Below, in pieces: positions 3,001-6,000 of a DNA stretch of 8,231 bases. This DNA is from Giardia intestinalis. Lineage: Eukaryota. The position numbers were made by a program. The first letter of the stretch is position 1, and every line of letters begins with the position of its first letter. The DNA is taken from NCBI GenBank assembly GCA_000002435.2, contig AACB03000013.1, one strand, 5' to 3'.

Positions 3001-6000
3001 GTGTGTGTGGGGAGTGCAACAGTGGCTTCAGTCTAGACAATGGTAAGTGTGTGTCCTCTGGCGCCAACAGGAGCGGGCTCTCCGCGGGGGCCATCGCGGG
3101 GATCTCCGTGGCTGTGGTCGCTGTCGTGGGGGGCCTCGTGGGCTTCCTCTGCTGGTGGTTCGTGTGTAGAGGGAAGGCGTGACTTAGGTAGTGAATGCTA
3201 TGAGTGATGATAATGGGTGATAATGTGTGATAGAGGGTGATAATGGGTGATAGTGTGTGATAGTATGATAGTGGAGTGAGATATGTACAAAGGCTGAGGG
3301 AGGAGTGTGCACTACTTGTAAGGCAGATAACGGCCTGTTCAAGAACCCTGCTGCAACACCAGAGAAGGGTAGTGAGTGCATCCTCTGTCATGATATCAAG
3401 GGAGCAGATGGATATACGGGGGTGGCTAACTGCGCACAGTGTCAGGCACCACAGAGTGCAGGACCTGTCACATGTACTGCCTGTCAAGATGGGTTCGTTA
3501 AGAAGGACAGTGCATGTGTGAAGTGCGGAGAGGGCTGCTCTGCCTGCTCAGCTGATACTCCGACTCAGTGTACCGCCTGCGTTGAGGGGAAGTTCCTGAA
3601 GGCTGACAAGTGTGTGGATGCTAATCAATGTGACAATGGTAAGTATGCAGACCCAAAAACAGGCCAATGCAAGGCCTGCACGGACACAAGTGTCAATGAA
3701 TGTGCTACGTGTGCATACAGCGACACTCTTCAGAAGCCTGTGTGCACTGGGTGTAATAGTGGAGGAAACCTGCTTCTTAAGGTGAACCCCGATGGGTCAG
3801 CGACGTGTGTTGCGGAGGCAGAGTGCACAAGTGGCAATACGCACTTCCTTGAACAATCTCCAAAAGCTTGTGTTCCATGTGGTGATACTAAAAATGGTGG
3901 GATTCTAGGTTGTGATACCTGCTCCTCTAAAACTACATGTACAAAGTGCCTCGATGGATATTACAATAGTGCAAGTGGTAATACCGCTACATGCACAGCC
4001 TGTGGTGAGAACTGTGCCACCTGTGCTAAGGATACAAAAGACCAATGCACGACCTGCAAGCAAGGGTACTTCTTGAAGGATAGCTCCTCTGGTGAGTGCA
4101 TCTCATGTAGTGATACAGCAAATGGTGGCCGCGATGGGTGCAGTGCATGCTCTAACAGTGGTGGATTCAAATGTACTGACTGTAAGCCTAACTATAAGAA
4201 ACAGCTTAATGGAGATGCAGGGGATGACTATACGTGTACAAAGACCTGTGAAGATGAGACTGCATGCGGGGGGACAGCAGGGGCCTGCGACGCCATCGTG
4301 GTCGGCAACGACGGCAGCATGCTCTCTTACTGTTCAAAGTGTGTTGGCGCCGGCTATGGCCCATTAATGGGAAGTGCACCAATGCACTTGCAGGTAATAC
4401 CTGCGCCGATGGTGTATGTACGCGGTGCACCAACAACTACTTCCTCTATATGGGTGGCTGTTATAAAGCAACAGAGGTGCCTGGTAGCCTCATGTGCTCC
4501 GAAGCAACAACAGCTGGTGTCTGTACTACTCCCAATGCCAATGATAGGTACTTCGTAGTCCCAGAAGCAAAGGCTACTGATCAGTCTGTACTAGCCTGTG
4601 GCAACCCCCTAGGCACACTAGTAGACCCTCAAGGTACTGCTAAGGCATACGTGGGGGTGGATGGCTGCTCACAGTGCACAGCCCCAACAGCTCTGACTGA
4701 GGGTGGTATGGCTGCTGCTGTGTGTACCTCCTGTGACAGTGATAGGAAGCCCAACAGGGACGGCAGTGGGTGTGTCCTGTGCTCTGTGGGTGGTTGTAAG
4801 AGCTGTGTGGTGGACGGTGTGTGTGGGGAGTGCAACAGTGGCTTCAGTCTAGACAATGGTAAGTGTGTGTCCTCTGGCGCCAACAGGAGCGGGCTCTCCA
4901 CGGGGGCCATCGCGGGGATCTCCGTCGCTGTCATCGCTGTCGTGGGGGGCCTCGTGGGCTTCCTCTGCTGGTGGTTCGTGTGTAGAGGGAAGGCGTGACT
5001 TAGGTAGTGAATGCTATGAGTGATGATAATGGGTGATAATGTGTGATAGAGGGTGATAATGGGTGATAGTGTGTGATAGTATGATAGTGGAGTGAGATAT
5101 GTACAAAGGCTGAGGGAGGAGTGTGCACTGAGTGTAATACAGCTAACGGCCTGTTCAAGAACCCGGCTGCAACACCAGAGAAGGGAAGGGAGTGCATACT
5201 GTGCTCCGATATCAATGGAGCAGATGGATATACGGGGGTGGCTAACTGCGCACAGTGTACCAAGTCAGACAGTAGTACAGGACCTGCCACGTGTAGTACC
5301 TGCAGAGATGGATACTACATGGACTCTCAGGCATGTACCAAATGTAATGACAACTGTGCCACATGTACCGGGGCCGGTCAGAATCAGTGTTCATCTTGTA
5401 AAGCGGGCTTCTATCTGAAGTCAGACGGGTCGTGCTCAAAAACCTGCGATAATAACCAGTACCCCGACCCAAGCACCGGCAAGTGCACAGCCTGTAACGG
5501 TGCAGCAGAGCAGGGGGGCATACCAGAGTGCACTGCTTGCACGTACGATGCAAAGCTACAGAAGCCGGTATGCAGTGACTGCGGTAATAAGAAGGTAAAG
5601 ACAGAGCTGGATGGAACGACAACCTGTGTTGATATGAGCTCTGGATGTGTGGATGAGAATCACTTCAAGGCAGACGATGACTCAGCCTGTTATCTATGTG
5701 GTGATATTAGTGGAAATAATGAGAATACAAACAAGGGTGTTGCCGATTGCAACAAATGCACCAAGGAGGCAGGTACCAAAACAACGTGCTCTGAATGCCT
5801 ATCGGGTCGTTTTCTTGAGACTAATACTTGTACGAAGAAATGCGCTGATACCTGTGCAAAGTGTACTGCTGAAACTGACATTAACAAATGTACTGAATGC
5901 ATGCCGGGATACTTCCTAAAAACCGAGGGTGTAACAAAGGAGTGCGTCCCTTGTAGTGACACAGCCAAAGGTGGCATCGATGGATGCAGTGTCTGCTCGA

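What the first reader, a model, noticed from the sequence alone, without database searches (positions are those of the whole stretch)
3183..3304. Conserved spacer module: stop - polyA signal - C-free 10-bp minisatellite - decoy ATG
Spacers 2, 3 and 4 (3183-3304, 4999-5120, 6943-7056) are essentially identical. They have AGTGAAT 8 nt after the stop. They then have an 87-89-nt tract with no cytosine on the + strand, built from about 7 phase-locked 10-bp repeats (GTGATAATGG / GTGATAGTGT / GTGATAGAGG / GATAGTATGA). They end with the ATG mini-ORF.

The 10-bp period rotates TGA/TAA/TAG through all three + frames, so the tract is an absolute translational barrier on the sense strand. The complement is C/A/T-only, so it cannot encode TAG or TGA. 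The minus strand is therefore open across the spacer, which explains antisense ORFs such as 2762-3487.

Spacer 1 (1362-1422) has the same ends but only about 3 repeats, so copy number is variable. This looks like a minisatellite flanking each cassette. It is functionally reminiscent of the 70-bp repeats upstream of VSG cassettes and could be a recombination or conversion boundary, a promoter, or both. The tract lacks the short AT-rich initiator typical of Giardia promoters, which mildly favours the recombination or silent-cassette reading.
Basis: seen in the sequence. Interest (0 to 1): 0.75.

Follow-up and report, generated by a model that had tools for sequence, protein, structure and literature searches.

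The report
Junction repeat between silent Giardia VSP cassettes
The "spacer" is the junction between neighbouring silent, 5'-truncated copies of a Giardia surface-antigen (VSP) gene in an already-known tandem array, made of the normal VSP polyadenylation signal, a variable 10-bp G/A/T-only repeat and the cut-off start of the next copy; the repeat has apparently not been described, but nothing here shows it has a job of its own.

Summary
Four head-to-tail Giardia duodenalis VSP units end in CRGKA-TGA. Each is followed by the same module: ACTTAGGTAGTGAATGC, then a 56-89 nt cytosine-free tract of GTGATA+4-nt units (period 10), then the next VSP body.

Three points change the interpretation:
- The left end is the published VSP "extended poly(A) signal".
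- The "decoy ATG" is the out-of-frame ATG inside the conserved Ile-Cys codons (ATA TGT) of every VSP. It marks where a 5'-truncated body, lacking start codon and signal peptide, resumes.
- Such arrays of start-less pseudo-VSPs with short intergenic regions are already described (Adam 2010; Xu 2020).

What appears new is the repeat. The module occurs at 12 of 12 array junctions (8 distinct sequences) in the window and five independent assemblies, with 1-7 units and three different fusion points. It is absent from 7 non-array VSP 3' ends and from the rest of about 114 kb sampled.

Best reading: a junction inherited with the array unit, changing length by slippage and homogenised by unequal exchange or conversion. 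It leaves each cassette terminated, promoter-less and untranslatable. A role like the trypanosome 70-bp repeats is not excluded, but no matching tract lies upstream of complete VSPs. Interest is modest.

The parts
1..1361 (+). Unit A. This is the 3' part of a pseudo-VSP, cut by the window start and broken by a frameshift near 651-667. It ends ...FICRGKA-TGA.
   Evidence: It closely resembles the C-terminal part of P0005, as read from the sequences.
1361..1377 (+). Junction 1, VSP extended poly(A) signal ACTTAGGTAGTGAATGC. The first A is the last base of the stop codon.
   Evidence: It matches the published motif ACUUAGRUAGURAAYRY.
1383..1438 (+). Junction 1, the short G/A/T-only tract. It has about 4-5 GTGATA-type units, and the last unit runs into the V-I-C-T codons.
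1423..3182 (+). Unit B, a 5'-truncated pseudo-VSP body. It starts WSVICTKASNGLCTACK, has no in-frame ATG or signal peptide, has a frameshift near 2253-2268, and ends CRGKA-TGA.
3182..3198 (+). Junction 2, extended poly(A) signal ACTTAGGTAGTGAATGC (hexamer AGTGAA at 3190-3195).
3199..3287 (+). Junction 2, the 89-nt cytosine-free tract. The units are ATGATAATGG GTGATAATGT GTGATAGAGG GTGATAATGG GTGATAGTGT GTGATAGT ATGATAGTGG. The last 16 nt (3272-3287) are already VSP codons W-S-E-I-C.
3272..4998 (+). Unit C, a 5'-truncated pseudo-VSP body. It starts WSEICTKAEGGVCTTCK, has a frameshift near 4258-4380, and ends CRGKA-TGA.
2983..3307 (+). Homogenised block shared with 4799-5123. Identity is 100% over 3158-3307 and 94-100% back to 2983. 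The flanks are only about 50-90% identical.
4998..5014 (+). Junction 3, extended poly(A) signal.
5015..5103 (+). Junction 3, 89-nt cytosine-free tract, identical to junction 2.
5088..6942 (+). Unit D, a 5'-truncated pseudo-VSP body. It starts WSEICTKAEGGVCTECN, has frameshifts near 6450 and 6640, and ends CRGKA-TGA.
6942..6958 (+). Junction 4, extended poly(A) signal.
6959..7046 (+). Junction 4, 88-nt cytosine-free tract. It equals junction 2 minus one G in a GGG run.
7031..8231 (+). Unit C', a second copy of unit C, cut by the window end. Compared with C (comparison over 3058-4480 versus 6818-8231) it has 0 substitutions and 8 one-base indels.

Best explanation
The window is part of a "linear array" of pseudo-VSP cassettes from an assemblage-A-like Giardia duodenalis.

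**Anatomy of each spacer**
- The left end is the ordinary VSP 3' end: stop codon plus the extended poly(A) signal ACTTAGGTAGTGAATGC.
- The right end is the broken-off 5' end of the next VSP. That VSP has lost roughly its first 100 codons, including start codon and signal peptide.
- The middle is a short satellite of GTGATA+4-nt units.

**How it arose and is maintained (inferred)**
- The whole junction was created once and has been copied with the array unit ever since. Copying is by unequal crossing-over and gene conversion that use the conserved 3' coding region plus the junction as homology.
- The satellite gains and loses units by slippage.
- Deletions between the satellite and internal VSP sequence have produced different fusion points.

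**Consequences**
- Shown from sequence: every downstream cassette follows a poly(A) signal, has no initiator or in-frame ATG, and is preceded by stops in all frames. It therefore cannot make a VSP on its own.
- Inferred: the cassettes are silent. At most they serve as sequence donors.
- Inferred: the C-free composition, the frame-rotating stops and the open antisense frames are side effects of the repeat unit's sequence and its 10-nt length, not selected functions.
For: **Identity of the units**
- All homologues are Giardia VSPs, PF03302.
- The units resume at ...WSEICTKAEGG, which corresponds to about residue 100 of full-length VSPs.
- The left end matches the published extended PAS, which is tied to VSPs and pVSPs.
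- Arrays of start-less VSPs with short intergenic regions and no Inr are published.

**Single origin of the junction**
- All 12 array junctions (8 distinct sequences) carry AGTGAATGCT plus the GTGATA tract. They come from the window, DH GCA_000498715.1, and ENA ERZ27260139, ERZ27317378, ERZ28528424 and ERZ28595607.
- All 7 non-array VSP 3' ends carry AGTAAACGC and no tract.

**Slippage and deletion**
- Junctions have 1-7 units.
- There are three fusion points: GLLFMGGCYK, (E/V/D)ICT, and GGCKSC about 70 aa from the C-terminus.
- In L006-L008 the last GTGATA is itself the GAT-ATG of the I-C codons.

**Homogenisation**
- J2 and J3 are 100% identical across 3158-3307, with diverged flanks.
- The C/C' duplication breakpoint lies at about 3058, in the conserved TM-coding region.

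**Specificity and lack of structure**
- GTGATA clusters occur nowhere else in the 104 kb scanned, and only on the VSP sense strand. The two loci fetched later also have none, giving about 114 kb in all.
- There is no RNA family match and no single-strand structure.
Against: - The GTGATA core is almost invariant while the 4-nt tail varies. This could mean constraint on a binding site rather than neutral slippage.
- The sample is small: about 114 kb, mostly short-read contigs in which arrays are collapsed. WB chromosome sequence could not be retrieved.
- Silence of these cassettes was not measured here. It is inferred from the sequence and from literature on other arrays.
- The cassette bodies show no in-frame nonsense apart from indel frameshifts. 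This would fit maintained donors, so the junction may have a role in keeping or using them.
Confidence: 0.68

Rival explanations
1. Recombination element. The GTGATA tract is a fragile or homology-providing 5' boundary for gene conversion of pseudo-VSP cassettes into expressed VSP loci. It would be functionally equivalent to the 70-bp repeats upstream of trypanosome VSGs.
For: - It sits 5' of every cassette in every array junction sampled.
- Copy number and fusion point vary, as expected of a break-prone tract.
- The block of 100% identity between J2 and J3 is centred on the junction and ends about 20-35 nt after it.
- One strand is pure G/A/T with GC skew 0.9.
- Pseudo-VSP arrays have been proposed as recombination reservoirs.
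Against: - No tract lies upstream of complete VSPs in L001, L003, L006, L009 or L011/L012. The acceptor-side homology that defines the 70-bp system was therefore not seen.
- The visible duplication breakpoint lies in the conserved coding region, not in the tract.
- The 10-nt unit and its sequence are unrelated to the 70-bp repeats.
- No folding propensity was found.
- The tract was not seen in the few assemblage B and E loci sampled.
Confidence: 0.14
2. Cis-regulatory element. The tract acts as a GU-rich downstream element for cleavage and polyadenylation of the upstream cassette, as an array of WGATAR-like protein-binding sites, as a 10-bp-phased nucleosome-positioning signal, or as an AT-richer patch that starts sense or antisense sterile transcripts feeding VSP silencing.
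For: - The tract begins about where cleavage is expected, 13-15 nt after the hexamer (with the coordinates).
- It is G/U-rich, with GC 0.40 against 0.52-0.72 in the flanks.
- The core TGATA(A/G) is nearly invariant with a 10-nt phase.
- The linker CAATGTG is one base off the VSP initiator PyAATGTT.
Against: - Complete VSPs polyadenylate without any such tract.
- No in-frame ATG follows, so a promoter here would have no product.
- Downstream array members lack the Inr in WB.
- G. muris pseudo-VSP arrays are not transcribed.
- The literature search turned up no Giardia GATA-type factor.
Confidence: 0.12
3. Artefact. The tract, or its identity between spacers, is produced by long-read consensus errors or by mis-assembly of a collapsed repeat.
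For: The window clearly carries long-read-type errors. Units C and C' differ by 0 substitutions and 8 one-base indels, and every unit is frameshifted.
Against: The same module, with the same left end and unit types, is present in five independent assemblies. These include short-read MEGAHIT and SPAdes contigs and the NCBI DH genome. L006 and L007 show the identical junction at the same chromosomal locus in two samples.
Confidence: 0.03

Closest known systems
Giardia VSP "linear arrays" of pseudo-VSPs (Adam et al. 2010, PMC2996952; Xu et al. 2020, PMC7000408)
   Same: - Head-to-tail VSP units.
- Short intergenic regions (published mean 60 bp, up to 241 bp).
- Downstream members lack Inr, start codon and signal peptide.
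- Units within an array are related.
- Proposed to be silent cassettes or discarded copies.
   Different: The passages of those papers read here (targeted term searches and selected sections) do not mention a conserved junction sequence or a 10-bp G/A/T repeat. A full-text search for the repeat words together with Giardia found nothing. The repeat, its restriction to array junctions and its link to the AGTGAATGCT form of the poly(A) signal are what this analysis adds.
VSP extended polyadenylation signal ACUUAGRUAGURAAYRY (bioRxiv 10.1101/2022.03.07.483299)
   Same: The first 17 nt of each spacer, counting the A of the stop codon, match the motif at every position. The motif is reported to be specific to VSPs and pVSPs.
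   Different: All array junctions use AGTGAAT-GCT. All non-array VSP ends sampled use AGTAAAC-GC. That split is not mentioned in the section read.
70-bp repeats upstream of Trypanosoma brucei VSG cassettes (review PMC6893398)
   Same: A repeat block lies immediately 5' of each silent antigen (pseudo)gene in an array. The block varies in length. A conserved 3' end provides the other homology block.
   Different: - The unit is 10 nt, not about 70 nt, and the sequence is unrelated.
- The tract is 20-90 nt, not hundreds to thousands.
- No copy was found upstream of expression-competent genes.
- There is no evidence that Giardia switches VSPs by gene conversion.
Giardia muris telomere-adjacent pseudo-VSP arrays (PMC7641422)
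   Same: Tandem arrays of signal-peptide-less VSPs that are not transcribed, with phylogenetic signs of recombination or segmental conversion with intact VSPs.
   Different: It is a different species with a GCRGK tail. The junction sequences of those arrays were not examined here.

Membership tests
Giardia VSP / pseudo-VSP linear array | Units are VSP homologues rich in CXXC motifs | tested here: met
   All 237 and 82 hits are Giardia VSPs with PF03302. Cys content of the open segments is 7-13%.
Giardia VSP / pseudo-VSP linear array | Conserved C-terminal TM domain ending in CRGKA plus stop | tested here: met
   Four ...FLCWWF(I/V)CRGKA-TGA ends, at 1361, 3182, 4998 and 6942.
Giardia VSP / pseudo-VSP linear array | Extended poly(A) signal ACUUAGRUAGURAAYRY within a few nt of the stop | tested here: met
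   ACTTAGGTAGTGAATGC overlaps the stop at all four junctions.
Giardia VSP / pseudo-VSP linear array | Head-to-tail units with short intergenic regions; downstream members lack Inr, start codon and signal peptide | tested here: met
   The non-VSP gap is about 60-90 nt. The bodies resume at WS(E/V)ICTKA with no in-frame ATG. Only one-mismatch Inr-like strings are present.
T. brucei 70-bp-repeat-type recombination boundary | Repeat block immediately upstream of most silent cassettes | tested here: met
   12 of 12 assemblage-A-like array junctions carry the tract.
T. brucei 70-bp-repeat-type recombination boundary | The same repeat is also upstream of the expressed or expressible gene, giving acceptor homology | tested here: not met
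   No GTGATA cluster lies upstream of complete VSPs or anywhere else in about 114 kb. The sample is small, so this is provisional.
T. brucei 70-bp-repeat-type recombination boundary | Repeats mark the 5' limit of conversion tracts or are break-prone | not testable with these tools
   The only indirect data are that the J2/J3 identity block ends just past the junction while the C/C' breakpoint lies in coding sequence.
Micro/minisatellite evolving by slippage | Head-to-tail copies of a short unit | tested here: met
   TRF period 10, 3.1-5.5 copies, 76-82% matches. Autocorrelation at lags 10, 20 and 30.
Micro/minisatellite evolving by slippage | Copy number differs between loci or alleles | tested here: met
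   1 to 7 units across the 8 distinct junctions. The one locus seen in two samples (L006 and L007) is identical, so within-locus polymorphism is not shown.
GU-rich downstream element of a poly(A) site | Present downstream of functional cleavage sites of the same gene family | tested here: not met
   Seven non-array VSP 3' ends have no such tract.

The most novel reading that the evidence does not exclude
The GTGATA tract is Giardia's functional counterpart of the trypanosome 70-bp repeats. On this reading it is a break-prone, strand-asymmetric boundary that lets start-less pseudo-VSP cassettes be copied segmentally into expressed VSP genes. Antigenic diversification in assemblage A would then have a recombinational arm alongside the epigenetic/RNAi switch.
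Probability: 0.1. Interest if true: 0.75.

Novelty: new member of a known kind. Interest (0 to 1): 0.3.

Why it matters
- **Where the repertoire sits.** Pseudo-VSP arrays hold more VSP-like sequence than the complete VSP genes do in WB (208 pseudo-VSPs against 133 VSPs). They are the least well assembled part of Giardia genomes, and their role is unknown.
- **A practical marker.** A sequence signature found only at array junctions (AGTGAATGCT followed by GTGATA+4-nt units) would help to find, count and correctly annotate array members. At least one reference protein appears to start inside the upstream gene's poly(A) signal.
- **An evolutionary handle.** The shared junction indicates that the array junctions sampled descend from one founding event.
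- **A testable question.** It gives a defined site at which to look for breaks, copy-number change or conversion boundaries. If such events were found there, the view that Giardia varies its coat without DNA rearrangement would need revising.
- **As it stands.** This is a descriptive refinement of a known structure.

Tried and rejected
- **Rfam scan of the window:** no family.
- **Single-strand DNA folding of the spacer, both strands:** no structure, z-scores +0.9 and +0.6. Hairpin or cruciform ideas were dropped.
- **Two scans of JGI metagenome contigs for the junction:** 0 hits.
- **Retrieving WB chromosome context for P0016 and P0121:** not on record. No genome-wide count could be made.
- **Source locus of the window:** units C and D have no close protein relative (best hits 53-57% and 69% identity). 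The source locus was not identified, and the same array could not be checked in another assembly.
- **Assemblage B (GS_b) and E (P15) loci:** these gave no head-to-tail junction of this type. Absence of the tract outside assemblage A is suggested but not established.
- **Origin of the tract by C-to-T hypermutation of the GC-rich VSP 5' region:** I considered this, but the canonical sequence does not obviously align, and the 10-nt periodicity points to slippage. It was not formally tested.
- **"Decoy ATG" as a feature:** rejected.
- **Literature search for a Giardia GATA-type factor:** nothing relevant.
- **Sigma-70 promoter and terminator scanner:** not used, because it does not apply to Giardia.
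Full report
**1. What is in the window**

The 8231-nt window is a head-to-tail array of Giardia duodenalis variant-specific surface protein (VSP) units.
- Four units end in ...FLCWWF(I/V)CRGKA-TGA, at 1361, 3182, 4998 and 6942.
- Translations hit only Giardia VSPs (PF03302). The best identities are 69% for unit D and 53-57% for unit C.
- The unit period is 1816-1944 nt.

**2.

- After each stop there is the same sequence: CTTAGGT-AGTGAAT-GCT, followed by a cytosine-free + strand run of 56, 89, 89 and 88 nt.
- From base composition, an 89-nt C-free run is expected about 4e-6 times in the window.
- TRF reports period 10 with 5.5 copies in spacers 2 and 3, and 3.1 copies in spacer 1. 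Autocorrelation peaks at lags 10, 20 and 30.
- Spacers 2 and 3 are identical. Spacer 4 lacks one G in each of two G-runs.
- Each + frame has 5-9 stops per long spacer. The minus strand is essentially stop-free, and antisense ORFs span the junctions.

**3. Where the units begin, and the "decoy ATG"**

- In the VSP reading frame, the sequence after each tract reads W-S-(E/V)-I-C-T-K-A-(E/S)-G-G-x-C-T-x-C-K....
- Full-length VSPs carry ...PGSEICTKAEGGLCTEC... at about residue 100. It follows the signal peptide and the first cysteine-rich segment (P0005, P0016, P0013).
- Their DNA there is GA(G/C)ATATGCACA.
- It is also only one of eight ATGs in the spacer. All eight open 2-7 codon ORFs.
- The units are thus 5'-truncated VSP bodies with no in-frame start codon and no signal peptide. 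The non-VSP part of spacer 2 is 3183-3271.

**4. The left end is a known motif**

- A-CTTAGGT-AGTGAAT-GC matches every position of the "extended PAS" ACUUAGRUAGURAAYRY. That motif is reported for all 136 WB VSPs and is found almost only at VSPs and pVSPs.
- The same source puts Giardia cleavage most often 13-15 nt after the hexamer. By inference, this places cleavage at the start of the repeat tract.

**5. The array type is known**

- Adam et al. 2010 described VSP "linear arrays". Their intergenic regions average 60 bp (from overlapping up to 241 bp), and no downstream member has the Inr. The authors proposed that these members are unexpressed cassettes for recombination, or discarded copies.
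- Xu et al. [quoted passage not shown]
- None of the passages I read mentions a junction repeat. A full-text search for the repeat words together with Giardia found nothing.

**6. The module outside the window**

I fetched contigs around VSP homologues and found the same junction in five independent assemblies.

| Source | Locus and position |
|---|---|
| NCBI DH genome | L001, 12110 |
| ENA ERZ27260139 (2.2-kb contig, three junctions) | L005, 1-100, 1877 and 2145 |
| ENA ERZ27317378 and ERZ28528424 (same chromosomal locus, next to a DNA primase gene) | L006, 2781 and L007, 887 |
| ENA ERZ28595607 | L008, 105 and 2114 |

- With the window this gives 12 junctions and 8 distinct sequences.
- All have TGACT(C/T)AGGTAGTGAATGCT, a 7-9 nt linker, then 1-7 units of GTGATA plus 4 variable nt.
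- The right end fuses to the VSP body at three different places:
  - G-L-L-F-M-G-G-C-Y-K in L001 and L005-1.
  - (E/V/D)-I-C-T in the window and L006-L008. Here the last GTGATA is itself the GAT-ATG of the Ile-Cys codons.
  - G-G-C-K-S-C, only about 70 residues from the C-terminus, in L005-2.
- By contrast, seven VSP 3' ends that are not followed by another unit have AGTAAACGC and no tract. They are L001 13961, L003 11972, both genes of the L011 inverted pair, P15 L009, and GS_b L004 and L010.
- In the 104 kb scanned, clusters of GTGATA occur only at these junctions and only on the VSP sense strand. The two later loci add about 10 kb with none.
The tract is not an assembly artefact, and it was not seen at unrelated sites.

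**7. Signs of how the array evolves**

- Junction-centred alignment shows J2 and J3 are 100% identical over 3158-3307 and 94-100% identical back to 2983. Identity falls to 82-85% for the next 150 nt and to 66% or less beyond that. Upstream of 2983 it is 50-90%.
- J2 and J4 are identical from about 3058 onward through the whole of unit C. The C/C' duplication therefore has its left breakpoint in the conserved TM-coding region.
- This is the mosaic pattern expected from unequal exchange or conversion that uses the conserved 3' end plus the junction as homology.
- Variable unit number and variable fusion points fit slippage, and deletions between the tract and similar internal sequence. Both are inferences.
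- All array junctions share the AGTGAATGCT form of the PAS, which argues for one founding junction.

**8. Technical caveat**

- Units C and C' differ by 0 substitutions and 8 one-base indels, mostly in short homopolymers.
- Every unit is interrupted only by frameshifts, not by nonsense codons within the VSP frame.
- This is the signature of an unpolished long-read consensus. The frameshifts and the two spacer-4 differences should not be read as biology.

**9. Mechanism**

*Most likely (0.68).* The spacer is a passively inherited array junction.
- It ends any transcript of the upstream cassette at a standard VSP poly(A) signal.
- It leaves the downstream cassette without a promoter, start codon or signal peptide.
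- The C-free strand, the frame-rotating TGA/TAA/TAG and the open antisense frames follow from a unit that contains TGATA(A/G) and is 10 nt long.
- The WB protein XP_001706653.1 begins MLYSDSDSDSAMWCGGDSGGVGLFFMGGCYK. This reads as a translated junction variant whose ATG lies in AGTGAATGCTG (the DNA was inferred, not seen). The "translational barrier" is therefore not universal.

*Rivals.*
- A recombination boundary like the 70-bp repeats (0.14). The position fits. However, the acceptor-side copy that defines that system was not found upstream of complete VSPs.
- A cis-regulatory role (0.12). Candidates are a GU-rich downstream element, a GATA-like site array, nucleosome phasing, or a start site for sterile transcripts. 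Complete VSPs do without the tract, and nothing translatable follows it.
- An artefact (0.03). Independent assemblies exclude this.

**10. Verdict**

The silent-cassette array and the flanking variable repeat hold. The decoy ATG and a designed translational barrier do not. The recombination function is untested.
- The array is a known kind of structure. The conserved junction repeat and its tie to a PAS variant appear undescribed in the literature I could search, and they are of modest interest.

Noticed in passing
window 3058-4480 versus 6818-8231: The two copies of unit C differ by 0 substitutions and 8 single-base indels. Every unit in the window is broken only by frameshifts. This is the signature of an unpolished long-read consensus rather than pseudogene decay.
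   Followed up: yes
window 2983-3307 versus 4799-5123; duplication breakpoint at about 3058/6818: Identity between neighbouring junctions is mosaic. It is 100% across the junction with diverged flanks. The C/C' duplication breakpoint lies in the conserved TM-coding region. Both suggest unequal exchange or gene conversion.
   Followed up: partly
window 1361-1377, 3182-3198, 4998-5014, 6942-6958; L001 12110 versus 13961; L003 11972; L011 5104: All 12 array junctions use the poly(A) form AGTGAAT-GCT. All 7 VSP ends not followed by another unit use AGTAAAC-GC. This is a perfect split in a small sample.
   Followed up: partly
P0002 (XP_001706653.1, WB): The annotated N-terminus MLYSDSDSDSAMWCGGDSGGVGLFFMGGCYK looks like a translated array junction. 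Its start codon would lie inside the upstream unit's poly(A) signal (AGTGAATGCTG), which suggests a mis-annotated pseudo-VSP. The DNA itself was not retrieved.
   Followed up: partly
L005 1877-2215: A mini-unit made of only the last ~70 codons of a VSP (GGCKSC...CRGKA) is flanked on both sides by junction modules. Array units can therefore be very short.
   Followed up: partly
L004 5040-5100; L010 3510-3570; proteins P0010, P0012, P0014, P0015 and others: Many assemblage B (GS_b) VSP ORFs start at the same point (VNDPAGVSIDSLCRP...). The called GTG lies in GAGTGAACGATCC, preceded by a conserved GC-rich non-VSP sequence. This is a different, recurrent kind of start-less VSP without the GTGATA tract.
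   Followed up: no
window 1382-1388; also L001 12135, L006 2806, L008 130: The linker (A/G)TACAATGTGTG contains CAATGTG, one base off the VSP initiator PyAATGTT. It could be chance or a relic of a former start.
   Followed up: no
window 3209-3268 and all junction tracts: The core GTGATA is almost invariant (single GTGACA, GTAATA and ATGATA variants), while the following 4 nt vary (AATGG, AATGT, AGAGG, AGAAG, AGTGT). The core equals the WGATAR consensus. No Giardia GATA-type factor turned up in the literature search.
   Followed up: partly
P0020, P0067, P0102, P0103, P0142: Several clear VSP sequences in public records carry unrelated names, such as Dynein light chain, NAD synthase, Queuine tRNA-ribosyltransferase, ATPase involved in DNA repair and Nucleoporin NSP1. 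These are probably annotation transfer errors.
   Followed up: no
L011 and L012 (ENA ERZ27317378, ERZ19219916): Two oppositely oriented VSP genes. The + strand gene has a canonical Inr (CTCAATGTTGC) at its start, and both genes have AGTAAAC ends. No GTGATA cluster lies anywhere on the contig. It was used as a contrast to the array junctions.
   Followed up: yes
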